A stretch of 60,395 nt of DNA, from IMG/VR virus record IMGVR_UViG_3300046820_000327, positions 1-60,395 of that record. One strand, 5' to 3'. The notes beneath the pieces are model-generated. The model did no database searches. It was not told the DNA's origin and was given only the letters and a program-made list of their open reading frames with translations. The position numbers and the translations under genes were made by a program. Position 1 is the stretch's first letter. Each line of letters opens with the position of its first letter. Below, piece by piece: positions 13,851-60,264 of the stretch. Source of the stretch: a virus (taxonomy: Duplodnaviria; Caudoviricetes).

Positions 13851-15515
13851 TTAGTTTAAATATTCGATATTCGATGTTAACAAAATAGGATCCGACACTA
13901 CAGATGAAGTATATGTAATATCCCCGGTAACACCGTTGACATTAAAATCAAAGCCTACGTCCCCGGTTTCTGTATAATCTTCGTCAAAGTAATATGCACC
14001 ACTTCGTCTAACAATTTTCATCTCTCCGGTTCGTGTGGCACCATCGTGTGTGATAACATAATTTAATTTAAGATTATTATACCCAGATGGAATATACTTA
14101 AGGCCAACACTGGTTGTTGTTGCAGATTCTTCTAGCTCAAGGGTATTACCTCTACCAGTGGTCAATCGACCGTTGACAATTCCTAGATCCTGTCCTACTA
14201 TGTAGCAATTATAAGATCCGTAGTCAATGTTAGGGAACAAAGCATAGTCTGTATCGTTGCGATCAAAACTGTCAGCAATACTGAAGTTGTTATTGTCTTC
14301 AAATTTAATAGCGGCACTGGTTGCTAAACCGGCTGCATTGTTGATCGGTGTGTCGCTTTCGTGGTCGTCAAGGCCAGCGGCAGTAACAATGTTACCAAGG
14401 CTCATTACATTATTAACATAAGGATAGCAACGTAGACTTTCCTTGGCGCTGTAACGATAATAGTTATCATATACGCTGATACCATAAGGAATATATGCAT
14501 TTGGATCAACACTATTGTTACCGGCCACAATGTGATGGTAACAATGATCAAAGAAGCAACTGGTTACACTAACACCAACTACACCGTTGTTAAGTTCTAT
14601 ACCATAGTTCTGGTCCATGAAGTCGCATTGTGTAAACACTAAATTTCTAACTATCTCATGTTCTGAATTGTTATTCACACATACAGCGGCAATGCCACTG
14701 GCACGTTCAACGTTATACACAGGATGATTAAGACTAGTAGATCCTGCATAGTCAGCTGTGGTTTTATCCAACATACCGCGGAACATAACTCTGTTAAAAG
14801 TAGCAGTAAATCCTCCGTCAATGACTAAACAGCTTTGATCGTAGTCCAGTGACTTTTGTATAAAGCTCATGTCGCTGAAATGGTATTCAGCAATTTCAGG
14901 TTGTACACTTCCCACTGGCGCACCAAAATCAACACCAACTTGTCCGGCACTGTCTGCGAATTGTGCTATAGGGCCGTCAAAACTTCCTTCGAGACTTGTG
15001 CTACGTTTTCCTTCGCCTTGTAGACGAGAATAAGGGGGAATATCGATTGTACTGGTAACTCTGTACGTGCCTGCTGGGAAATAAATTGTTCTGTGTTTGC
15101 CGCTGGCAATTTGACTTTGACTAGATCCGTATGTACGCTCTAGTGCTCGCTGAATAGCGGCTGTGTCATCGGCTACACCGTTACCAATGGCGCCAAAGTC
15201 TTTTACGGAAACATAATCATCTAACTTATCTTGTAGTGTACGTACAATAGGATGTAGTGCATCTACACCAGTAACCACTTGGAAACCTGCAGCCAACCCT
15301 TTAAATGTATAGCTGTTGGCTAATGCTAAAATATCTGCGTGTTCTGTTAGAATTTCTGTGCGTCCTTCTACAGGAGCACCTTCGGCTGTTGTACCGTTAC
15401 CAATATATAGACGACGCTCATCTACACTCCAGCCCAGCTCAGCTGATGATAAGTTAGGTAAATCTTGTTGTAAACCTCTGCGATGTTGAATTCGGCTTAT
15501 TTGCACTACTGCCAT
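13851..15515 (-). CDS. Tail fibre/tailspike with an Mtd_N-like N-terminus and a pectate-lyase-3-like beta helix
   Basis: RIQHRRG...AELGW..DERRLYIGNG N-terminus; SVKDFGAIGNGVADDTAAIQRA...IYFPAGTY; TAAATA box upstream. Confidence 0.8.
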   Translation of the reverse strand: MAVVQISRIQHRRGLQQDLPNLSSAELGWSVDERRLYIGNGTTAEGAPVEGRTEILTEHADILALANSYTFKGLAAGFQVVTGVDALHPIVRTLQDKLDDYVSVKDFGAIGNGVADDTAAIQRALERTYGSSQSQIASGKHRTIYFPAGTYRVTSTIDIPPYSRLQGEGKRSTSLEGSFDGPIAQFADSAGQVGVDFGAPVGSVQPEIAEYHFSDMSFIQKSLDYDQSCLVIDGGFTATFNRVMFRGMLDKTTADYAGSTSLNHPVYNVERASGIAAVCVNNNSEHEIVRNLVFTQCDFMDQNYGIELNNGVVGVSVTSCFFDHCYHHIVAGNNSVDPNAYIPYGISVYDNYYRYSAKESLRCYPYVNNVMSLGNIVTAAGLDDHESDTPINNAAGLATSAAIKFEDNNNFSIADSFDRNDTDYALFPNIDYGSYNCYIVGQDLGIVNGRLTTGRGNTLELEESATTTSVGLKYIPSGYNNLKLNYVITHDGATRTGEMKIVRRSGAYYFDEDYTETGDVGFDFNVNGVTGDITYTSSVVSDPILLTSNIEYLN

Positions 15516-33811: not shown

Positions 33812-35557
33812 TTAATTTGGGGTTAGCCAAGTGCCAGCACCACCACCGCCCACAAACGCAGGAGTCACTGGCTTATCAGTTAAGTCATTGTAACTAACTG
33901 TGCCTGTCCACGCTGTAGTCTGTACAGTAGCATCGTTGAATGTCACTGATTCCAATGTTGGATTAGTGTCTGGCGGTGCTAGTACTGTTGGACTAGCATC
34001 AACCCATTGCTCATTGTATTTGACATACACACGAGCTTCTTCTGTATTAAACCAAAGGGTGTCTGTGTTGGGTGCTGTTTCACTGGCTGTAACTATATCG
34101 GAAAATGTTATTCCAGTAAATGCTGTTGTTTGTAAAGTACCGTCACCAAACACAATACCAGTAGATTGAACTGCTGGACTTGCACTAAAATATAAATTAG
34201 TTGGTAATGTTATGTTACCAACAGCATCAAATAACCATTGTTGGCCGTCCTCTGATGTGTTGATTACAACACAGTTGCCGCCACTAACTCGTAAAGCATT
34301 GCCATCCTGGTCAGTGTCTTGGTCAATGTAACCGTAGTTTAACCAGATTGCGCCACCAGTGGGTAGATACAGCGAGCCATCTGAATCTAGTGTTACTGTG
34401 ACGTTACCGTTGACTAATACGTTAGTGTTTCCGCTGTTGTTTAGTTGATCAACCCATTCAGTATGATAATCATCGCCGTCAACTTTAGCCAACACTTGTC
34501 CGGTGGTGCCGCCTATAGGAACTCCTACCCCAGCAGGACCTTCTACGCCTTGTTCACCTTGTGGTCCTTGATCTCCCTGTGGGCCAACATCTCCCTGGGG
34601 CCCTTGATCTCCTTGTGGGCCTGGATCGCCTTGTGGACCTGGATCGCCTTGTGGCCCAGTTGGTCCTGTTTCGCCTTGTAAGCCAACATTTCCTTGAATA
34701 CCTTGCTCGCCTGTATCGCCTTTGTCTCCGCGTGGTCCAACAATAGGTCCAATATCTGCCCAACTACTAATAGTCGTGTTCCAAAAGAACAAGTTGCCTG
34801 TGCTGGTAACAATATATGCTTCACCTGCATTGCCACTAAATGTTAAATCTTCAGGTAATGCTACATTACCTACCAGTGTAACGCTAATACCCTGATCGCC
34901 GCGATCACCTTTGATGCCTTGTATGCCCTGTGGACCAGTAGCTCCAACGTTGCCTTGGATACCTTGTGTGCCGGTAGGACCTGTGTTGCCTTGTATTCCT
35001 CGTGGACCCACATTACCCTGAAGACCTTGTTCTCCACGCGGGCCTGTATTACCTTGTATACCCTGTATACCCTGTTCTCCACGCGGGCCTGTATTACCTT
35101 GTATACCCTGAAGACCTTGTTCTCCACGCGGGCCTGTATTACCTTGTATACCCTGAAGACCTTGTTCTCCACGCGGGCCTGTATTACCTTGTATACCCTG
35201 TATACCCTGTTCTCCACGCGGGCCTGTATTACCTTGTATACCCTGTATACCCTGTATACCTTGGTTTCCCTGTGGTCCTTGAGGGCCAACTACTCTACCT
35301 GTATTAATTACAGCACTATTGCTTAATGTAAGTATTAAGTTACCATTAGTAACTGTTGCTGAGGAAATTGTAGTAGCGTTTCCACTACCGCCGGCGCCTT
35401 GTACAATATGTCCGCCAGCAGTTACGCCGTCTTGTATACGCAAAGTGCGTAATCCGGTATCAATAATTACTTCGCCAATTGGTCCAGTATAATTGCTTGC
35501 CGCGGTAGTATTACCGCGTTTTAACAAGATTTGTGAAATTTTTACATTTGCAGTCAT
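33812..35557 (-). CDS. Collagen-like fibre protein with an Mtd_N-like N-terminus
   Basis: QILLKRG...YTGPIGEVIIDT...IQDGVTAGG N-terminus; two Gly-X-Y blocks. Confidence 0.9.
   Translation of the reverse strand: MTANVKISQILLKRGNTTAASNYTGPIGEVIIDTGLRTLRIQDGVTAGGHIVQGAGGSGNATTISSATVTNGNLILTLSNSAVINTGRVVGPQGPQGNQGIQGIQGIQGNTGPRGEQGIQGIQGNTGPRGEQGLQGIQGNTGPRGEQGLQGIQGNTGPRGEQGIQGIQGNTGPRGEQGLQGNVGPRGIQGNTGPTGTQGIQGNVGATGPQGIQGIKGDRGDQGISVTLVGNVALPEDLTFSGNAGEAYIVTSTGNLFFWNTTISSWADIGPIVGPRGDKGDTGEQGIQGNVGLQGETGPTGPQGDPGPQGDPGPQGDQGPQGDVGPQGDQGPQGEQGVEGPAGVGVPIGGTTGQVLAKVDGDDYHTEWVDQLNNSGNTNVLVNGNVTVTLDSDGSLYLPTGGAIWLNYGYIDQDTDQDGNALRVSGGNCVVINTSEDGQQWLFDAVGNITLPTNLYFSASPAVQSTGIVFGDGTLQTTAFTGITFSDIVTASETAPNTDTLWFNTEEARVYVKYNEQWVDASPTVLAPPDTNPTLESVTFNDATVQTTAWTGTVSYNDLTDKPVTPAFVGGGGAGTWLTPN
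35017..35262. repeat. About 5 near-identical 45-bp tandem repeats encoding GNTGPRGEQG(I/L)QGIQ
   Basis: The unit containing ...TGTTCTCCACGCGGGCCTGTATTACCTTGTATACCCTG... recurs every 45 nt. Confidence 0.9.
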
Positions 35558-53297: not shown

Positions 53298-53321
53298 GAT
53301 TGATTTGCTCTAAATTTTGGT

Positions 53322-54260
53322 TTAGAAACGATGTGTTAAACCAACACCATACCGCTGTGCTTGGTTAGCTCTTGCTGGAGCATCTTGATTTTGGTAAGCA
53401 ATATCAACTGCTGTACGCTTGCTGAAGTTATAAGCAAAACCCACTGTGGATGTTTTTTGATCCACAACATCTTTTACACCATAACCAATTTTAAAATCAA
53501 CTTTGGTTGTGACTGGGTGCAACGCACTCAATGACCATGCTTTGTAATCAACATTAGAGATTTTGTCTTGGCTGTAGCCAGCAAATACTCGTGTTTTAGT
53601 TGGCAATGTGTATGCCGCATTTAACAATGTTGTTTCATCTGTGCCAGCTGTAGTGTAACGGAAAGCACCAAGGTGTAGGTCTTTTACTGGATTCAACACA
53701 GTATAAAATACTTGTGTATCTTCTACAGTTGCACTTTCACTTTGGCCGTTTTGGTAACCAACGATTACGCCTGCAATTGGGGTGGCTTCAATGAAAATAC
53801 CATTACCGATACGGTTGTTACGATAAGAGTGAGTTTTGTTTGCGGCACTGAACAATGGCAATACTGCAAATGCATCAAAGCGTGATTTACCGTACTGGAA
53901 CATGGCATTGTCCTTACGGCCCATATCAATGCTACCAAATTTATTTGATAGACCTACTGTACTTTGACGATCACCAAATTTACTGGCATCAGCCGATGCT
54001 GGGTTATCTGCGGCAATGCTGGTATCAATCATGAAGTTTGCACGTATACCGTCGCCTAAATCTTCAGAACCTCTGAAGAAGATGTTGCTGGTGTTGCTGT
54101 CAATTTGTGTTGCCTTGGCACTACCTGCACTGGTATTATTTGTAAAATACTGACTGATACGACCACCAATTTGCACATTTGACGAAGCAAGTACATTTGT
54201 CTGTGCTTGAGCGCCAACTGCTGTGGCCAAAAGACCAACTGCTAATAGTTTCTTAAACAT
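53322..54260 (-). CDS. Trimeric outer-membrane porin (betaproteobacterial type)
   Basis: Signal peptide, FRGSEDLGDG, RQSTVGLSNKFGSI..GR, AYNFSKRT and C-terminal GVGLTHRF. Confidence 0.92.
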   Translation of the reverse strand: MFKKLLAVGLLATAVGAQAQTNVLASSNVQIGGRISQYFTNNTSAGSAKATQIDSNTSNIFFRGSEDLGDGIRANFMIDTSIAADNPASADASKFGDRQSTVGLSNKFGSIDMGRKDNAMFQYGKSRFDAFAVLPLFSAANKTHSYRNNRIGNGIFIEATPIAGVIVGYQNGQSESATVEDTQVFYTVLNPVKDLHLGAFRYTTAGTDETTLLNAAYTLPTKTRVFAGYSQDKISNVDYKAWSLSALHPVTTKVDFKIGYGVKDVVDQKTSTVGFAYNFSKRTAVDIAYQNQDAPARANQAQRYGVGLTHRF

Positions 54261-54293
54261 TCTAGTTTTCTCCTTTAGTTGAAACTTGATAAA

Positions 54294-54323
54294 ATTTTAC
54301 ACAACAGGACACTACGGTGTCAA
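54294..54323 (-). promoter_or_regulatory. Sigma70-type promoter of the porin gene
   Basis: TTGACA-N18-TAAAAT. Confidence 0.65.
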
Positions 54324-54351
54324 GTTATTTGTGTATCAATTTTTGATTTTA

Positions 54352-54443
54352 TGCTAGCGAAGTATTCGCATACGGAAGGGCCCACGCATTTAAGACATAG
54401 AGGTCCTATATTGGTCCGACGTCAGTGTAACTGGCGTTGCTTT
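54352..54443. ncRNA. Unnamed structured non-coding element, copy A
   Basis: Shares the blocks TGCTAG, CATACGGA, TATTG, CCGACGTCA and TGGCGTTGCTTT with copy B; stems covary. Confidence 0.65.
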
Positions 54444-54477
54444 GTAAAAATATTTATTTACAACAAATTTATTTAGT

Positions 54478-54942
54478 TTATTTTTTGTTCAAATACTCAT
54501 CTATATGACTTTGTATTTGTGGCCTACGTTTTCCGTTATAATATGCTTGATGTGTTGGGCACAACGGCACAATATTATGGTCCGATGCGTCAGTTTCGTC
54601 ACCGTTGACAGCAACAATGTTCACCAATTTTTCTTCCCCGCATACACAGCAACGTTTTTCAATCTTAGTTAAATCTGGTAGCTGTATGTCGCGTTTTTGT
54701 TCATGACTCCAACGCTCAAGATACTGTTTGATTGCTGGTAATACATCCTCGGGCCAGTGACTGTGCAAATACCTGTGGTGTGTTGGGCACAATGGCAATA
54801 CATTTTCTGGGCGTTGATCCGTTTCTACTTCGTTCATGTGATGCACGTCTAGTACGCCATCCTCTCCGCATACTACGCATTTACGCTCATGGTGCTGAAA
54901 ACACACCCATCTAAATCCATTTTGAAAGTCTGTAATTTCCAT
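54478..54942 (-). CDS. Tandem Zn-binding HNH-like repeat protein
   Basis: Two CxVCGE...N..PLCPTH units; only the first keeps the HH..N..H residues. Confidence 0.75.
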   Translation of the reverse strand: MEITDFQNGFRWVCFQHHERKCVVCGEDGVLDVHHMNEVETDQRPENVLPLCPTHHRYLHSHWPEDVLPAIKQYLERWSHEQKRDIQLPDLTKIEKRCCVCGEEKLVNIVAVNGDETDASDHNIVPLCPTHQAYYNGKRRPQIQSHIDEYLNKK

Positions 54943-56600
54943 TATTTTCTACTCCTAAATTCGTCAAAAATTTCTCTACTGCTTTTGCCATCAAACCTAT
55001 TAGCTCGTAACCACTCGTACGCATTAGGCCACTTTAGTGATCTTATGTACTTGTTGCGAGCACGGTTAAATGCAAAATAGGCTTGTGCCATTTCAATATC
55101 TTCTTTGGTCGGAACTGCAAACGGCCAGTTTTTAACTTCTGTCTTGGTCTGGATAGCCATTTTAACATAGATATGTTCCCAATAGTTCAAGTAACGTTTG
55201 CTGATATCTGTTTTTTGTTCAGTTAAAATTTGTTCAAAGTCTTCAATTAAGTTAAACTTCCTAGCCGCTTCTCTACGCTTTTCCCAATACAATCCAGACC
55301 GATTACTGAATCCGTGATGTGTGCGTACACGAAGATCTCTCTCGGCCGTAATACGACAACGATTTTCGTTAAACAAATCTCTGCCAGCCTCAATAGTTGT
55401 TTCGCCAGACTGCAATTGCTTGCGTACTTTAATCAGATCCTCGAGTCCCTTAGTGTGCTCGCTAAAGGTAGGTGCGTCCCAAGGATCGCTTAGGCCCGAA
55501 CTAACTCCAAGTTGAATACAGTTATGATTCCATGTCTTGCTGTAAAAGCCCGGCTTCCATTGAATAAGTCTAGGTTCTACTATGCGAGTACCATCAGTAA
55601 CTTTTTTGATACGCTCGAGGGTCACTTCTGGATCTACCCAGTTGCTGTTAAACACATATCCGTTGCCGCGGCGATGATATAGATTTAATTGAAAACGCCA
55701 CCCGTGGTCCTCACCATGAATGTTAGTAGCACAAATCATTTCTTTATGTGGATCTGTGTAATGGCTGGGACATACCCACGCACTGTTATTAGTGTATTCT
55801 GCTCTATCCTGCCAACTGGTGTTGCCAATTTTGTTAGTTAATACGCGACCAAAACCTGTACAGTCAATGTACAAGTCTGCTTGAAGTTTTTCTAAGTTGT
55901 CATCACGAACAATATAGTCAATACTGCCACTGTTGGTTAACCCAACGTCTTTTACGTTGGTCAAAATATGTGTTAAGTTGCCAGTGTTGCGTTGATAGCA
56001 CTGGCTTTTTAATAAGCTGACCATTTGTTCAGCGTCCATGTGGAAGCTGGTGCCACCATAGTGACGTATAATCTTTTTATTATTTTCGTCATAGGGCACA
56101 CATGGATTTTGCACAAAGTATTGAGTATCCTGCAGTTCTACCAAGAAGTCGTCCATGGTTTTACCACCGGGCTTGTTTAACAAGTCCTTGTTTAAGTACA
56201 ACCAAACATTGGCCACACCCATGTCGCCATCTTGTTTGTTCCAATGCTCATAGACATCATTATAGTCAATTCCATTAAAGTAATTGACCAGGCCCTTGAT
56301 TTTTACGTTGGTTAACTGGCCGTTGCCTATGTCTTCTCCGTCGTTCAGGAAACCAAAGTTGCGAACACCAAACTTGTATATGCTACCGGTTTCCCTCATG
56401 ATCAACTGATCGTTATCAATTCCCAGCAAATCTCTCCAAACATAAGGACTTTCAAACCCCAATGTTTCGCCAACTCCTAGTCTAGGAATAGTTGGAGACT
56501 CTAGTACTGTTATACGCAGGTCAGGGCAATGGTTCTGTAGTGCCAGTGCCGTAAACCATCCTGCAAAACCTCCACCTACTATAGCTACGTGATTGATCAT
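54942..56600 (-). CDS. Tryptophan-halogenase-family flavoprotein (divergent)
   Basis: VGGGFAGW, GVGET, YKFGV, FHMDA, ADLYIDCTGF and R.GNGYVF motifs. Confidence 0.85.
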   Translation of the reverse strand: MINHVAIVGGGFAGWFTALALQNHCPDLRITVLESPTIPRLGVGETLGFESPYVWRDLLGIDNDQLIMRETGSIYKFGVRNFGFLNDGEDIGNGQLTNVKIKGLVNYFNGIDYNDVYEHWNKQDGDMGVANVWLYLNKDLLNKPGGKTMDDFLVELQDTQYFVQNPCVPYDENNKKIIRHYGGTSFHMDAEQMVSLLKSQCYQRNTGNLTHILTNVKDVGLTNSGSIDYIVRDDNLEKLQADLYIDCTGFGRVLTNKIGNTSWQDRAEYTNNSAWVCPSHYTDPHKEMICATNIHGEDHGWRFQLNLYHRRGNGYVFNSNWVDPEVTLERIKKVTDGTRIVEPRLIQWKPGFYSKTWNHNCIQLGVSSGLSDPWDAPTFSEHTKGLEDLIKVRKQLQSGETTIEAGRDLFNENRCRITAERDLRVRTHHGFSNRSGLYWEKRREAARKFNLIEDFEQILTEQKTDISKRYLNYWEHIYVKMAIQTKTEVKNWPFAVPTKEDIEMAQAYFAFNRARNKYIRSLKWPNAYEWLRANRFDGKSSREIFDEFRSRK

Positions 56601-56603
56601 ATA

Positions 56604-57698
56604 TTATATCTCATAAAAAGGCGTTATCATGCCATGAAAGTTATTACTGGCAGCATTAAAGTATTGGCTGTCTACTAGACTTTTAATTAGTTCGAGGCCT
56701 TGACTATGTTGAGTTTTTAAAACATCGTCGCTGTTTAGTATGCCTTTGTCTGAACTAACTGTTGTGTCTGTGCTTTTTCTTAACTGAAACCAATTTGGGT
56801 TCCAGGTTGGATAAACTTGCTCTCTAACCACCGACTGATAATAGTCAATGGGTATACCTGGTGTAGGTGGCCAAGAAATCAAGGAATGCAGTTCTGGGCG
56901 AGCCTGGAAATATCGTTTTAGCATGTGTGCTTGTTTTCTTAATATAGGCTCAGCTTCAGGTGCCCAATAAAACCATTCAGTTTCTGCATTGCCTACTTGT
57001 GCTTGATCGGGAGTCATACTATATCCCACTACATCAAGAAAGTAAATGTAGTACTTACCGTCTTTGATTACTATTCTAGGCTTATCAACTCCCATTATGT
57101 AACCAACACGATTCTTTGTGTGTACGCTATCAATATGCTGTAGTGATCTGCGTTGCTCAATAAAAGGATTAAGCATGACGTTACGATTGTCCCAGAAATC
57201 TTCTGGCAGTGACAGGTCTCGGTGTTCCCACCAATCGTACAAGGTTAACTTAATGTCAGGGTATTGCTGTGAGATCCATTGAAAATCTATCTTGGCTCTA
57301 AATTCCCACTCGGCAGTTACGTTGTTGCTGTAGTGCCATTCCGTGGTTGTGGCTTCGTAATTGTTGCCCATGCCCTTGTAGCTGTATCTACTTACTATTT
57401 CATCTAGCTTGATATTGTTTTGTAAAAATACATCTAGTATATTTCTACTGTCCGATCCACCACTGTAACCTAGTATCAGATAGTCGTAAGTATCACGTAA
57501 TTGTTGAGCACGTTGTCGGTACAGTTCCCACAAACTTTCTGTGGGTTCTTGTTTCCACTTAACTTGATCAAAAAACTCGCGATGAAACACCCACTCAGGG
57601 TGGGTGTTTGTTTCTGTTCCTTTAAGTAGAGCAGGTATCTTGTGCTGATATTCCTGTGCGCCTACTCGATAAAAACCTAATCGCTTGTTAATTTGCAC
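56604..57698 (-). CDS. PP-loop (adenine nucleotide alpha-hydrolase) protein
   Basis: LILGYSGGSDS and later GVDKP motifs. Confidence 0.75.
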   Translation of the reverse strand: MQINKRLGFYRVGAQEYQHKIPALLKGTETNTHPEWVFHREFFDQVKWKQEPTESLWELYRQRAQQLRDTYDYLILGYSGGSDSRNILDVFLQNNIKLDEIVSRYSYKGMGNNYEATTTEWHYSNNVTAEWEFRAKIDFQWISQQYPDIKLTLYDWWEHRDLSLPEDFWDNRNVMLNPFIEQRRSLQHIDSVHTKNRVGYIMGVDKPRIVIKDGKYYIYFLDVVGYSMTPDQAQVGNAETEWFYWAPEAEPILRKQAHMLKRYFQARPELHSLISWPPTPGIPIDYYQSVVREQVYPTWNPNWFQLRKSTDTTVSSDKGILNSDDVLKTQHSQGLELIKSLVDSQYFNAASNNFHGMITPFYEI

Positions 57699-58602
57699 GT
57701 AAAAACTTTGCTAGTTGTTCAATTTTGGCTTGGCTTTGTTGCGGTGTACCATCCACTACATTGTGATAAGGTGCTGTACGCTTAAGGAAACTCTGCACGT
57801 CGTCGCTGTGTATAGCTTTACGCAATCTTTTGTTTAATTCAAGCACGTCTGCATCCGAGGCATCAGTTCTAGCAAAAAGAATAACCATGCTGGTGATATT
57901 CTCAATGTCTGGCCAACGCTTGATTAAATTTTCTGTTGTGCTTCTATCTCCAGTAACACTGGCATGTGCAATTTCTTTAATACCAGTTACACCCGACATC
58001 ATTCTAATACTACCACCATCAACGTATGTCTCAAGAGAACCGTCTTTAAGATTAACAAGTGCGTCAGTTGGCTTTCTATAAAGAACCAACTCGTACTTAG
58101 CACCAACATGATCTAGTGCATGAGTTAAAACCTTGCTACTGGTTAATGCAGGTGCACCAACTAAAATTGGCTTTCCTGTTTGACGACTACGTGCTATTAC
58201 TGCATCCAATGTTGCTGGACCACCTTCTGGTGTTAAGATAAACTGCGTGAATTTCAAATAATCCACTATAGGTTTAAGTGTATTAACAGCCGGGGATTGT
58301 GCATTGGCTTTTTGATTAAATCCAGCTACACCGTTACCAGCACAGAAGATTGCCGGCTCAGTGCTTTTAATAAACTCACGATGTGCAATAATTTGATCTG
58401 CACCAGTCATATTTTTATGAATTACATTGACATTGTTTTGTTTTGCGTAAGTATCCATTAGATTTCTACACATAACATCCACAACGCTACCAACTGCAAA
58501 AGGTGTATATACTGCTAATGTTTCAGTTTTTATAATTGAGCCGGGCTGTGCAAATGCTGTAGTTGATACAACAGCCAAGGCTAAAAGGATCTTTTTGATC
58601 AT
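57688..58602 (-). CDS. TctC/Bug-like periplasmic substrate-binding protein (divergent)
   Basis: Signal peptide MIKKILLALAV (AGGAGA RBS), PFAVGSVVD..CR, N.TGA, VLYR...AL..L..G and LN..LRKA motifs. Confidence 0.75.
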   Translation of the reverse strand: MIKKILLALAVVSTTAFAQPGSIIKTETLAVYTPFAVGSVVDVMCRNLMDTYAKQNNVNVIHKNMTGADQIIAHREFIKSTEPAIFCAGNGVAGFNQKANAQSPAVNTLKPIVDYLKFTQFILTPEGGPATLDAVIARSRQTGKPILVGAPALTSSKVLTHALDHVGAKYELVLYRKPTDALVNLKDGSLETYVDGGSIRMMSGVTGIKEIAHASVTGDRSTTENLIKRWPDIENITSMVILFARTDASDADVLELNKRLRKAIHSDDVQSFLKRTAPYHNVVDGTPQQSQAKIEQLAKFLRAN

Positions 58603-58634
58603 AGATATTCTCCTAGTAAGTAAGTTTAACATAT

Positions 58635-58753
58635 TGCTAGTAGGATTGTCTACATACGGAGCGGCGTTCTGGGCATATCATGCCAGTAAAAGAGTTTTAC
58701 TACTCTTAGCGTCACTATTGTAACCGACGTCAACAGAATGTTGGCGTTGCTTT
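58635..58753. ncRNA. Unnamed structured non-coding element, copy B
   Basis: Same conserved blocks as copy A with a longer variable middle carrying two extra hairpins. Confidence 0.65.
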
Positions 58754-58758
58754 AAATA

Positions 58759-58782
58759 TTTATCTCCCCGAAGGGAGATAAA
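58759..58782 (-). other. Perfect 10-bp UUCG hairpin overlapping a TAAATA box
   Basis: TTTATCTCCC-TTCG-GGGAGATAAA; no U-tract follows on the minus strand. Confidence 0.7.
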
Positions 58783-58792
58783 CTTGATTTAA

Positions 58793-59707
58793 TTAATTTG
58801 ATACTTTAACGTTTTGAGTTAAACGTTTCCATTGAGAAATTTGTCCACTAAACCATGCATCCAATTGATTGTCTGCCATTTGATTATTAGGAGTACAATT
58901 GTCAGCGGCATTTGCGTCTTTTACGCTCTGTGCTCTGCTGGCTTCTACTAAAATCTTTCGGATACTAGCAAATTTTTCTGCAGGCATCTTTTGAGATGCA
59001 AAGATCTGTTGAGGTGTGCTCATGTCTAGTAATTCTTTGCTGAATCCTTGATTGGCCAATAGCTCTGTGCCTTTGACACTAACTTTACCAGTCTGGCCTA
59101 ACCAGTAAATTCTTTTTACCGATGTTGCATCTGTGTACTGCTCGCTGTCACCATGAAATCCCACGCTAAAATCAACTGCTCCACTTAAAACACCTAACAG
59201 GGCTTCGCTGGTACTCTTAAATGGTACAATGGTTAGGTTAGGATAGTTTTTAGCAATCTGGATGGATACTAAGTGTGTGGTTGTCCCCATACCGCTCATA
59301 CCAATTGATAGTTGTGCATTGGGTGGAACTTCTTTCCATGACTTGTACTTTGCACTAGAAATAACAAAAGGTGAAATGCACATTGGCAAAATACTACGGA
59401 AATCTTCCATACGGTGGCTGTCGGCAGGGAATAGGTTAGGACGAATAAAACCAGCCGAACTATTAATCCACAGGGTATTTGTTGGGTTGTTGTTTGTATA
59501 ATTGGCCGCAATAGTACCACCAGCACCGGGCTTTGTATCGAACACAAAATTGTATTGTGTTTGCAATTTGTTTGATTCTTCGGCTAATGCTCGATAATAA
59601 TTTGATGCTTTATCGGCTGCTGTCCACGAGTAGGCCAGTGTAATAGTCTCACGTGCTGTGGCTGTAAAACTGAGGGTTGCTAAAATAATAGCTATTAATT
59701 TTTTCAT
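58793..59707 (-). CDS. TctC/Bug-like periplasmic substrate-binding protein
   Basis: Signal peptide, KPGAGGTIAA, G.GTTTHL and VPFKS..EAL..VLSG.VD motifs. Confidence 0.85.
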   Translation of the reverse strand: MKKLIAIILATLSFTATARETITLAYSWTAADKASNYYRALAEESNKLQTQYNFVFDTKPGAGGTIAANYTNNNPTNTLWINSSAGFIRPNLFPADSHRMEDFRSILPMCISPFVISSAKYKSWKEVPPNAQLSIGMSGMGTTTHLVSIQIAKNYPNLTIVPFKSTSEALLGVLSGAVDFSVGFHGDSEQYTDATSVKRIYWLGQTGKVSVKGTELLANQGFSKELLDMSTPQQIFASQKMPAEKFASIRKILVEASRAQSVKDANAADNCTPNNQMADNQLDAWFSGQISQWKRLTQNVKVSN

Positions 59708-59730
59708 TGATTAATCTCCTTTATGTTAAA

Positions 59731-60264
59731 TTAATTTTTAGTTTGGGTTACTGTTACCCCGGACTGTGCAAGAAACTTAATTCCATCATCGCTTCGATAA
59801 GAGCTACGATAGAACACACTGTTAATGCCAGACTGATAGATAAGTTTGGCGCAGTCTAAACAAGGGGCATGAGTGATAAAGATAGTAGCACCATCGCCAG
59901 ATTCGCTACTTTTTGCCAGTTTAGATATTGCATTCGTTTCGGCATGCAATACCTCGGGTTTGGTTTTAAGACTATAGCGATTCATACGTGCATTACACGT
60001 ATCGTCGCTGTGATATGTAATCATTTCACCTTCGTAGGGCCAGCGTTCTTCGATTTCTTCGGGACTTAACCAGCCGCCAGTATCGCCCATCCATTCTACA
60101 TCTTCGCAGTTGTTATCCCAACCTGCGGGCATACCATTGTAGCCGATAGAGATAATACGATCCTCTTTGACGATAATGGCTCCTACATGCAATCTCTGAG
60201 CATGGCTCAACTCAGCAAATACTTCTGCTGTTTTCATGTAGGCGTTAATTAGTTTGGGTTTCAT
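59731..60264 (-). CDS. dCMP deaminase
   Basis: IISIGYNG, LHAETNAI and APCLDCAK motifs. Confidence 0.93.
   Translation of the reverse strand: MKPKLINAYMKTAEVFAELSHAQRLHVGAIIVKEDRIISIGYNGMPAGWDNNCEDVEWMGDTGGWLSPEEIEERWPYEGEMITYHSDDTCNARMNRYSLKTKPEVLHAETNAISKLAKSSESGDGATIFITHAPCLDCAKLIYQSGINSVFYRSSYRSDDGIKFLAQSGVTVTQTKN

What the first reader, a model, noticed from the sequence alone, without database searches (positions are those of the whole stretch)
54352..58753. Two copies of an unrecognised structured RNA/ssDNA motif with compensatory base changes
Seen, plus strand: copy A (54352-54443) is TGCTA-GCGAA gta TTCGC-ATA-CGGA-AGGGCC..GGTCCT-ATATTGG-TCCG-ACGTCAG tgtaa CTGGCGT-TGCTTT. Copy B (58635-58753) is TGCTA-GTAGG attg TCTAC-ATA-CGGA-GC-GGCGTT..two hairpins..AGCGTC-AC-TATTGTAA-CCG-ACGTCAACA gaa TGTTGGCGT-TGCTTT. 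The junction sequences are identical while stems change sequence yet keep pairing (GCGAA/TTCGC vs GTAGG/TCTAC; CAG/CTG vs CAACA/TGTTG). On the minus strand each copy starts a few nt after a TAAATA box and precedes an envelope uptake gene (porin; TctC). However, most non-Watson-Crick positions are G-U on the plus strand and A-C on the minus strand, so the folded strand may be the antisense one or ssDNA. I cannot match it to any riboswitch or ribozyme consensus I know. Inference: a new cis-regulatory RNA or riboswitch, a small trans RNA, or a folded recombination site bounding a gene cassette.
Basis: partly seen in the sequence, partly recalled or inferred. Interest (0 to 1): 0.88.

Follow-up and report, generated by a model that had tools for sequence, protein, structure and literature searches.

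The report
New phage leader RNA before uptake genes
The two look-alike stretches are copies of a widespread, previously uncatalogued folded RNA that sits at the very start of certain messenger RNAs of large freshwater-type phages, just ahead of borrowed nutrient-uptake and oxygenase genes, and it most likely acts as a built-in switch for making those proteins.

Summary
Both copies belong to one family, with over 100 distinct members in IMG/VR viral contigs. Covariation is strong: 22 of 32 pairs change on both sides, and 0 of 500 shuffles reach this. No Rfam 15 family matches, and blastn finds nothing in 50,697 GenBank phage records.

The strand puzzle resolves in favour of the gene (window minus) strand. 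In the variable stems, wobble pairs fall on that strand, 80 G-U against 19 A-C. All 101 distinct members start 2-10 nt after a TAAATA box and are followed by an ORF.

Downstream genes are mostly TctC, DctP and other binding proteins, porins, TauD-type dioxygenases and radical-SAM enzymes. Near-complete 317-344 kb phage genomes carry one or two copies. Sampled host-order bacteria carry none.

Best reading: a self-contained cis-regulatory, riboswitch-like 5' leader whose last hairpin competes with the ribosome-binding site. The effector is unknown. Support for the switch is suggestive, not significant overall.

The parts
58757..58762 (-). TAAATA promoter-like box of copy B, 6 nt before the RNA's first conserved base
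   Evidence: Sequence. A TAAATA box lies 2-10 nt (mostly 5-6) upstream in all 101 distinct family members. Minus-strand TAAATA boxes are enriched before genes in the window.
58636..58750 (-). Copy B of the leader RNA (type B, with a three-way central domain). Order: 5' GCAACGCC-hairpin-GACGUCGG (helix X), linker, GACGCU-[two hairpins joined by UUUAC]-AACGCC (helix Y), CCGU, hairpin P1, UAGC 3'
   Evidence: R1 92.2 bits; R2 101.3 bits, E 4e-24; covariation on the family.
58600..58614 (-). Translation start region of the copy-B gene: SD AGGAG at 58614->58610 and ATG at 58602->58600
   Evidence: Sequence. Folding predicts that the SD and the bases before the AUG can pair with the two strands of P1, but the predicted energy is not better than shuffles (z 0.51).
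57688..58602 (-). First gene under copy B: a 304-aa protein with an N-terminal hydrophobic stretch that looks like a signal peptide (by eye only), TctC-like by language-model features only
   Evidence: no Pfam hit; ESM Atlas 0.97 to TctC clusters, 27 of 30 hits.
54478..57698 (-). Rest of the apparent operon after copy B: a 364-aa unknown (56604-57698), a tryptophan-halogenase family protein (54942-56600) and an HNH endonuclease (54478-54942). The genes abut or overlap
58762..58780 (-). GC-rich hairpin (UAUCUCCC-UUCG-GGGAGAUA) between the upstream TctC gene and copy B's promoter box; terminator-like
   Evidence: Sequence; inference only.
54451..54460 (-). Two overlapping TAAATA boxes before copy A; the nearer one leaves a 10-nt spacer
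54353..54440 (-). Copy A of the leader RNA (type A). It has the same helix X, P2, P1 and UAGC, but the central domain is reduced to a short helix (one A·C mismatch kept) closing a conserved 21-nt loop
   Evidence: R1 62.9 bits; R2 53.7 bits, E 3e-11. The same short form occurs in L114, L184, L170, L202, L217, L182, L177, L172 and others.
54261..54352 (-). Extra 92-nt leader between copy A and the porin start codon, with SD AAGGAG at 54275->54270
53322..54260 (-). Porin gene under copy A
   Evidence: Pfam Porin_4, E 2.3e-28.

Best explanation
Each copy is the 5' leader of an mRNA read from the window's minus strand. Transcription most likely starts a few bases after a TAAATA box, which resembles the T4-type late promoter. 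The first 90-130 nt then fold into a conserved multi-helix domain.

The domain has these parts:
- A 5'-terminal hairpin (helix X).
- A 3-bp helix, P2.
- A central domain closed by helix Y.
- A final hairpin, P1, followed by an invariant AGC.

Helices X and Y share almost the same sequence (AACGCC opposite GACGUC or GACGCU). Both carry invariant A·C mismatches. I take these two mismatch helices to be the sensor surface.

I propose that the domain is a self-contained, riboswitch-like switch. When it folds, P1 and the AGC box are occupied and the ribosome-binding site is free. When it does not fold, P1 or box nucleotides pair with the Shine-Dalgarno or start-codon region and block translation.

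The effector is not known. Candidates are a small molecule, an ion or pH.

Shown: the family, its structure, its strand, its position and its gene associations.
Inferred: the transcription start, the switching mechanism and the existence of an effector.
For: Family and structure:
- R1 finds 101 hits (85 distinct) in the window plus 97 viral loci.
- R2 finds 104 hits (102 distinct) in the window plus 99 loci.
- On the gene-sense alignment, 22 of 32 pairs change on both sides across 572 cells. The covariation score is 0.399 against 0.146 for shuffles, and 0 of 500 shuffles reach it. Slid controls pair at 26-46% against 85.8% for the structure.
- P2 has compensatory variants: GC 95 / AU 6 at one pair, and CG 101 / GC 1 at another.

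Strand:
- Variable pairs read on the gene strand give WC 1677, G-U 80, A-C 19. The same imbalance was seen on the first alignment, 44 against 4.
- All 101 distinct members have TAAATA 2-10 nt upstream; 91 have a spacing of 5-6 nt. This includes 3 members that did not match the promoter-containing search pattern. It also includes all 22 viral loci found with a promoter-free pattern and confirmed by the model.
- In the window, minus-strand TAAATA boxes lie 15-35 nt before many start codons.

Sensor-like core:
- The A·C positions are invariant in 101, 95 and 83 sequences. Only 1-2 sequences are 'repaired' to a standard pair, while neighbouring pairs covary.

Portability:
- There are one or two copies per 317-344 kb phage genome. 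Many different downstream genes follow the element. This fits an element that needs no dedicated partner.

Expression platform:
- 5-mers complementary to the SD window cluster at the 3' half of P1 (13-20 of 55) and just after the AGC box (9-13 of 55). A third peak lies about 56 nt before the box end (18 of 55). The background is 0-5.
- In L133 the box pairs with a repeat, and a second repeat then covers the AUG (z -4.0, 1 of 200 shuffles). Without P1 and the box, the two repeats pair with each other and the AUG is free.
- L134 gives z -4.5 and L150 gives z -2.0.

Variant forms: some members carry tandem central domains (L155, L060, L065).
Against: - No transcript data exist, so the start site and the strand of the RNA are inferred.
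- Thermodynamic folding favours the opposite strand. The alifold energy is -19.9 against -13.6. Copy B has z -2.7 on the plus strand against -0.8 on the minus strand, and copy A is not better than shuffles on either strand. The cause is that the conserved cores are G-U on the plus strand and A·C on the minus strand.
- Overall, SD sequestration in MFE folds is not significantly above composition-preserving shuffles: 26 of 55 against 19.1 +/- 3.7, maximum 27. For the window's own copy B the alternative fold is weak (z 0.51).
- The downstream genes do not share one obvious metabolite.
- The family was not found in the bacteria searched, whereas nearly all known riboswitch classes are bacterial.
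- Two or three copies of one short mismatch helix could equally be binding sites for a protein.
Confidence: 0.45

Rival explanations
1. The RNA, strand and position are the same, but the effector is a protein. A phage or host RNA-binding protein would recognise the repeated AACGCC/GACGYC mismatch helices and control translation or stability. The models are T4 RegA, and the gp32 and gp43 operators (recalled, not from any call).
For: Two near-identical helices per RNA, and three in members with a duplicated central domain. The bases in them are invariant. Repeated short sites are typical of protein operators (general knowledge).
Against: There are only one or two copies per roughly 330-kb genome. 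The element is spread over many phage lineages and gene types, so a dedicated phage protein would have to travel with it. No candidate protein was identified, and neighbouring genes vary.
Confidence: 0.22
2. The leader is constitutive. It acts as a 5'-terminal structure that protects the mRNA from 5'-end-dependent decay, as a processing site for a double-strand-specific RNase, or as a translation enhancer for borrowed genes. No sensing is involved.
For: Helix X begins within about 0-2 nt of the inferred 5' end. Overall SD sequestration is not significant.
Against: A stabiliser does not need about 35 invariant bases, junction sequences such as UUUAC and CCGU, or mismatches that are never repaired. 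Other TAAATA-driven genes in the window do without it. The relay-type alternative folds in L133 and L134 would be unexplained.
Confidence: 0.15
3. It is a new self-cleaving ribozyme placed at the start of the transcript.
For: A compact multi-helix junction with invariant unpaired bases.
Against: No match to any Rfam ribozyme family. No cleavage-site logic is apparent. The tight link to the SD region fits regulation better.
Confidence: 0.05
4. The functional strand is the window's plus strand. This would be an antisense or small RNA ending in the GACGTC...GGCGTT hairpin, or folded single-stranded DNA acting as a recombination site that bounds gene cassettes.
For: The conserved cores form G-U pairs on the plus strand, and that strand folds better. 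There is a weak resemblance to a terminator-ended sRNA (sroD, 18 bits against a gathering score of 50). Leader-plus-gene units are adjacent in L212 and L126. An HNH gene lies next to copy A.
Against: Variable stems have 80 G-U on the gene strand against 19 on the other. The hairpin is followed by GC-N5-6-TATTTA in all members, which is a promoter box for the other strand and not a U-tract. No integrase appeared among the window ORFs scanned. The element is always upstream of genes, whereas attC sites follow them (general knowledge).
Confidence: 0.05
5. The element is mainly a mobile promoter-leader cassette that promotes shuffling of accessory genes by recombination between repeats, like the PeSL elements of T4-type phages. 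It would have no regulatory role of its own.
For: The same roughly 130-nt unit precedes unrelated genes in many phages and can be repeated 1-4 kb apart (window; L212, L126). The PeSL papers were seen in the search listing only.
Against: Recombination substrates need sequence identity, not compensatory base changes. Stems vary freely while pairing is kept. This reading could hold in addition to regulation.
Confidence: 0.05

Closest known systems
manA and wcaG RNA motifs (Rfam RF01745, RF01761; Weinberg et al. 2010, PMC2864571, passages read)
   Same: Structured RNAs in the likely 5' UTRs of host-derived metabolic genes of T4-like phages. They are known almost only from environmental sequence, are classed as candidate riboswitches and have no known ligand.
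   Different: No sequence or structure match (cmscan at E<=10 on both copies, at E<=1 on nine loci holding family members, and at gathering score on the whole window). The hosts differ: cyanophages there, phages linked to Betaproteobacteria-type genes here. The gene sets differ. The repeated A·C-mismatch helices and the fixed coupling to a TAAATA box are specific to this family.
Glutamine (glnA) riboswitches carried by marine phages (Buchholz et al. 2022, PMC9004378, passages read)
   Same: A cis-regulatory RNA carried by large T4-like phages of streamlined aquatic bacteria.
   Different: glnA RNAs are a bacterial class also found in hosts. This family was found only in viral contigs and three MAG contigs and does not match the glnA model.
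PeSL promoter/stem-loop cassettes of T4-type phages (PMC2839356, PMC4122927; search listing only)
   Same: Repeated intergenic promoter-plus-structure units that flank accessory genes in T4-type genomes.
   Different: PeSLs combine an early promoter with a simple terminator stem-loop and act through sequence identity (recalled from the abstracts' content). Here the promoter box is late-type, the structure has six helices with covariation, and about 35 bases are invariant.
Polynucleobacter-1 motif (RF01718; listed in Weinberg 2010)
   Same: A candidate cis-regulatory RNA from Burkholderiales and freshwater samples, which is the likely host range here.
   Different: No cmscan match. I did not see its structure, so no further comparison is possible.
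Candidate structured RNAs of viruses (10,006 csRNAs from IMG/VR and RNA viruses; Fremin et al. 2023, PMC10690425; abstract, outline and section 2.4 read)
   Same: The same data source and the same class of object: csRNAs directly upstream of phage genes.
   Different: The main text highlights leaders of GP20 and GP32 only (section headings in the outline). A term search of the main text found 'transporter' 0 times and 'porin' once, in the reference list. Whether this family is in the catalogue's supplementary tables could not be checked, because supplements are closed.

Membership tests
Any Rfam 15 family (4227 models) | Covariance-model score at or above the family's gathering score | tested here: not met
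   0 matches in the whole window at gathering score. At E<=10 around each copy, only chance-level hits appear: sroD at 18 bits against 50, plus tsr33, U4, CRISPR-DR53 and U1. In nine further loci holding family members, only tRNA, tmRNA and a plastid motif overlapping tRNAs were hit, none at the motif.
Riboswitch (as a functional class) | Conserved aptamer-like domain: invariant junction or internal-loop bases with covarying stems | tested here: met
   34 invariant columns in 35 diverse members. 22 of 32 pairs show double changes, and 0 of 500 shuffles reach this.
Riboswitch (as a functional class) | Location in the 5' untranslated leader, in the sense orientation | tested here: met
   A TAAATA box lies 2-10 nt upstream in 101 of 101 distinct members. 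An ORF of at least 60 aa starting within 130 nt was found for 93 of 101 hits. The other 8 lie near a locus end or before a hairpin and tRNA. The wobble-pair bias favours the gene strand. The transcript itself has not been observed.
Riboswitch (as a functional class) | Expression platform: mutually exclusive pairing that links the aptamer to the SD or a terminator | tested here: inconclusive
   There is positional clustering of anti-SD 5-mers at the 3' half of P1 and after the AGC box. Relay folds are strong in L133 and L134 (z -4.0 and -4.5). However, overall SD pairing is 26 of 55 against 19.1 +/- 3.7 in shuffles, and the fold is weak for window copy B.
Riboswitch (as a functional class) | Direct, selective binding of a small molecule or ion | not testable with these tools
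   Needs in-line probing, ITC or DMS-MaP with candidate ligands.
Riboswitch (as a functional class) | Downstream genes share a pathway that points to the ligand | tested here: inconclusive
   Among 80 distinct proteins the Pfam matches are DctP 15, TctC 15, TauD 7, radical SAM 7, Porin_4 4, TctA 3, SBP_bac_8 3, MFS 1, halogenase 1, desaturase 1 and Asp/Arg hydroxylase 1. Uptake of carboxylates and 2-oxoglutarate- or iron-dependent enzymes is a possible theme, but not a compelling one.
T4-type late promoter | TATAAATA box without a -35 element, start about 6 nt downstream, dependence on gp55/gp33/gp45 | tested here: inconclusive
   TAAATA is present in all members, but the full TATAAATA in only 27 of 101. 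The spacing to the RNA is 5-6 nt in 91 of 101. TATAAATA itself is not enriched in the window (3 against 4.3 expected), whereas minus-strand TAAATA is enriched before genes. The window carries T4-like replication genes (UvsW_N, DnaB-like, RNR). gp55 and gp33 were not searched for. The consensus is cited from PMC9004378.
Integron attC recombination site | A single imperfect hairpin of one DNA strand with R/L core sites, placed at the 3' end of promoterless cassettes next to an integron integrase | tested here: not met
   The element lies 5' of genes together with a promoter box. It has six helices. No integrase appeared among the window ORFs scanned. The attC core consensus is recalled and was not tested with a model.
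Terminator-ended small RNA on the plus strand | Own promoter, and a GC hairpin followed by a U-tract | tested here: not met
   The hairpin is followed by GC, N5-6, then TATTTA in all members, not by a U-run. The wobble bias is on the other strand.

The most novel reading that the evidence does not exclude
This is the first riboswitch class known only from viruses. It would be a self-contained sensor that large aquatic phages attach to borrowed uptake and oxygenase genes. Its two helices with never-repaired A·C mismatches would be the sensing elements. They could bind a central metabolite that reports the host's carbon and nitrogen state; the gene set hints at a di- or tricarboxylate such as 2-oxoglutarate. 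Alternatively they could close only when the adenines are protonated, which would make the leader a direct pH sensor.
Probability: 0.3. Interest if true: 0.88.

Novelty: new member of a known kind. Interest (0 to 1): 0.68.

Why it matters
Phages are known to carry host-like metabolic genes, but how they time or condition their expression is mostly unknown. Here a single portable RNA module of about 115 nt precedes more than a dozen kinds of such genes in more than 100 distinct viral sequences. It has a clear structure and unusually strong conservation.

If it senses a metabolite, an ion or pH, it would show that phages read the physiological state of the infected cell directly through RNA. It would also add an orphan class with a distinctive mismatch-helix architecture for structural study.

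Even if a protein is the effector, the family gives a ready handle for finding regulated accessory genes in uncultured jumbo phages. It also offers a compact regulatory part for Betaproteobacteria-type hosts.

Tried and rejected
- Rfam: nothing was found at gathering score or at permissive E-values.
- GenBank phages: blastn (word 11) found no match with copy B or with a consensus-like member.
- Expression data: no RNA holder was listed for window 53300-59800.
- Single-sequence folding does not separate either strand from shuffles for copy A.
- Comparing the fold energy of isolated stems between strands gave a mixed answer. P1 favoured the gene strand 27:9 and the helix-X extension (labelled p4) 21:2, but the central domain went 24:34. 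A purine/pyrimidine-only fold was noisy. I therefore relied on pair counts in model-based alignments.
- I looked for a closing helix between the 5' GC and the 3' AGC box, and for an extension of P2. The bases involved are invariant or do not pair consistently, so neither is claimed.
- Overall SD sequestration tested against shuffles was not significant.
- PHROGs and the ESM Atlas gave no function for the downstream proteins that lack Pfam hits.
I partly made up for this with a model search of 150 other genomes of the family of the Polynucleobacter-labelled MAG (only 22 candidates were scored per genome). I also ran a promoter-free pattern over 400 other genomes of its order. Both found nothing beyond the MAG's own short contig. 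These are samples and do not prove absence.
- Only 34 of the 118 loci were given to the model: 22 that also matched the second pattern, and 12 others chosen arbitrarily. The 12 had no hit.
- Literature: four searches found no description of this motif. The supplementary tables of Fremin et al. 2023 may list it but are closed.

Full report
**The observation**

The two stretches are in the sequence as described. The shared signature CCGACGTC-N5-25-GGCGTTGC occurs twice in the window and in none of 100 shuffles.

All ORFs between 49 and 60 kb lie on the minus strand. Copy A lies between an HNH-endonuclease gene and a porin gene (Porin_4, E 2e-28). Copy B lies between a Pfam TctC gene (upstream) and a 304-aa protein with an N-terminal hydrophobic stretch that looks like a signal peptide (by eye only). 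That protein has no Pfam match. It resembles TctC clusters only by language-model features (0.97, 27 of 30 hits).

The copy-B gene is followed without gaps by a 364-aa unknown, a tryptophan-halogenase homologue and the HNH gene. This looks like an operon.

**What the window is**

The window is an IMG/VR virus record that CheckV rates 14% complete. It encodes ribonucleotide reductase, a DnaB-like helicase, a UvsW-type helicase, primase/helicase, DNA polymerase, an exonuclease and many tail-fibre proteins.

Relatives carrying the same RNA include records of 317-344 kb. Four of these are at least 95% complete and two have terminal repeats. The element therefore belongs to jumbo phages with T4-like replication genes.

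**A large family**

Most are chance hits in GC-rich DNA, but the AT-rich ones showed the whole motif.

A covariance model built from 17 sequences (R1) found 101 hits (85 distinct) in the window plus 97 loci, and only the two known copies in the window. It found 23 more hits in 22 of 34 further viral loci. A second model in the gene-sense orientation (R2) found 104 hits (102 distinct) in the window plus 99 loci.

There are two forms:
- Type B (copy B) has a central three-way domain.
- Type A (copy A) has this domain reduced to a short helix closing a conserved loop.

A few members carry the central domain twice (L155, L060, L065).

**Structure**

On the gene-sense alignment, 85.8% of cells form standard pairs, against 70.8% in shuffles and 26-46% when partners are slid. 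22 of 32 pairs change on both sides across 572 cells. The covariation score is 0.399 against 0.146, and 0 of 500 shuffles reach any of the five measures.

The supported helices are:
- The extension of helix X.
- P2 (GC 95 / AU 6, and CG 101 / GC 1).
- The two hairpins of the central domain.
- P1.
- One pair that extends helix Y outward (70% paired, six pair types).

The related sequences share ancestry, so these shuffles overstate significance. The slid controls do not suffer from that problem.

**Which strand**

This is true, but only for the invariant cores. Thermodynamic folding consequently favours the plus strand.

The covarying stems say the opposite. Read on the gene strand they hold 1677 Watson-Crick, 80 G-U and 19 A-C cells. 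The first alignment gave 44 against 4.

Polarity is also fixed. All 101 distinct members have TAAATA 2-10 nt upstream of GCAACGCC, with a spacing of 5-6 nt in 91. This holds for the 3 members that did not match the promoter-containing pattern. It also holds for all 22 model-confirmed viral loci from the promoter-free scan. An ORF follows in 93 of 101 hits.

In the window, minus-strand TAAATA occurs 29 times against 15 on the plus strand. Fourteen of the 29 fall in the 14% of sequence between long ORFs, typically 15-35 nt before a start codon. The full T4 late consensus TATAAATA (cited from PMC9004378) is present in 27 of 101 members. It is not itself enriched in the window.

I conclude that the RNA is the 5' leader of minus-strand mRNAs. 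The plus-strand 'G-U pairs' are conserved A·C mismatches in that RNA.

**The mismatch helices**

Helix X pairs AACGCC with GACGUC. Helix Y pairs GACGCU with AACGCC. The two are nearly the same duplex, and each has A·C at fixed places.

These positions are A·C in 101 of 101, 95 of 96 and 83 of 85 sequences with letters at those columns. A further pair is U-A in 46 and C·A in 35. A single transition would repair each mismatch, and neighbouring pairs covary freely. The mismatches are therefore under selection as they are. Type A keeps one of them even though its helix Y is rebuilt.

What they bind is not known.

**Where it occurs**

- No Rfam family matches.
- No GenBank phage record matches by blastn.
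- In one genome for each of 185,579 prokaryote species, the promoter-containing pattern hit 18 stretches, of which 3 are real. These are two contigs of a Haliscomenobacter-labelled MAG and a 7-kb contig of a Polynucleobacter-labelled MAG.
- R2 found nothing in 150 other genomes of that MAG's family.
- A promoter-free central-domain pattern found nothing in 400 other genomes of its order.

In what was searched, the family is viral. TctC-family genes, Porin_4 porins and a beta-type tmRNA fragment next to one member suggest Betaproteobacteria-type hosts. This is an inference.

**Genes served**

The 80 distinct downstream proteins gave these Pfam matches:
- DctP 15 and TctC 15.
- TauD 7 and radical SAM 7 (3 with SPASM).
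- Porin_4 4, TctA 3 and SBP_bac_8 3.
- DUF2061 2 and hexapeptide transferases 2.
- One each of MFS transporter, tryptophan halogenase, fatty-acid desaturase and Asp/Arg hydroxylase.

The rest match nothing. Roughly half are uptake components. Near-complete genomes have one or two copies, so this is not a general late-gene leader.

**How it may work**

P1 and the invariant AGC lie 12-45 nt from most start codons. 5-mers fully complementary to the SD window are concentrated in three places, against a background of 0-5:
- The 3' half of P1 (13-20 of 55).
- Directly after the AGC box (9-13 of 55).
- One site in the central domain (18 of 55).

After the box, the anti-SD changes with the SD type: CUCCU or CUCUU with AGGAG, and CCUU with AAGG.

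In L133 the P1/box sequence, two repeats and the start codon form a four-part relay. With P1 and the box free, the AUG is buried (z -4.0). Without them, the two repeats pair and the AUG is open. L134 (z -4.5) and L150 (z -2.0) show other versions.

Against this, SD pairing in MFE folds is 26 of 55 against 19.1 +/- 3.7 in shuffles. The alternative fold of the window's copy B is no better than shuffles.

I therefore propose, with moderate confidence, an ON switch in which folding of the conserved domain frees the ribosome-binding site. The low copy number and the portability across phages and genes favour a self-contained sensor over a dedicated phage protein. A protein effector remains a serious rival.

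**Comparison with known systems and novelty**

The nearest analogues are the manA and wcaG motifs of T4-like cyanophages. These are orphan riboswitch candidates before host-derived genes (PMC2864571). Phage-borne glutamine riboswitches are another analogue (PMC9004378). This family matches none of their models.

It also differs from PeSL cassettes (listing only), from attC sites and from terminator-ended sRNAs. See the membership table.

A catalogue of 10,006 viral candidate RNAs from the same database exists (PMC10690425). Its main text does not describe this family, and its supplementary tables could not be opened.

I rate the element as a new member of a known kind (structured cis-regulatory leaders of phage accessory genes). 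Its unusual features are its virus-only distribution, its fixed coupling to a TAAATA box and its repeated, never-repaired A·C mismatch helices.

Noticed in passing
window 2104, 8359, 25144, 28380, 33809, 36075, 53064 (minus strand): TAAATA boxes lie 15-35 nt before the start codons of many minus-strand genes. They are probably the phage's own, late-type promoters with short leaders. The motif-bearing genes are the exceptions, with leaders of roughly 150-190 nt.
   Followed up: partly
window 54478-54942 (-): An HNH endonuclease gene (HNH_2, E 7e-5) ends the apparent operon under copy B and sits directly upstream of copy A's promoter. It may be a homing endonuclease in an accessory-gene region.
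   Followed up: no
window 59731-60264 (-): A dCMP/cytidine deaminase-family gene lies upstream of the TctC gene. It probably serves nucleotide metabolism. No link to the A·C mismatches was tested.
   Followed up: no
L212:8257-10345 and L126:4995-7151: Two complete units of promoter box, leader and gene stand head to tail. In L212 a 276-aa secreted protein is followed by DctP. In L126 an SBP-like protein is followed by DctP. This forms a small array of regulated cassettes.
   Followed up: partly
L155:218-409, L060:121-312, L065:3982-4180: Some members have the central domain duplicated in tandem. The two copies are identical in L155 and diverged in L065.
   Followed up: partly
L059:857-2217, L128:6-238, L216:1412-1534, L176 after 8000: tRNA gene arrays, a beta-type tmRNA fragment and, in L176, a tRNA-like sequence (read by eye, not scanned) lie right next to the leader. 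In L176 the leader is followed by a hairpin and that tRNA-like sequence instead of an ORF.
   Followed up: no
window 57688-58602 (-): The ESM Atlas holds a cluster of 214 'Bordetella uptake protein family' proteins, 99% viral, that resemble this protein. Phage-borne TctC-like binding proteins therefore seem common.
   Followed up: no
window 13851-15515 and 33812-35557 (-): A tail-fibre-like protein has an Mtd_N domain plus a pectate-lyase-like domain, and a 581-aa protein has collagen triple-helix repeats. These are probably host-recognition proteins.
   Followed up: no
L186:4945-5010, L133:519-575: A 13-15 bp hairpin built from repeats of the leader's own 3' end (UACUAGCA / UGCUAGUA) follows the leader before TctA genes. 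It is followed by a U-rich stretch, so it could also act as a terminator.
   Followed up: partly
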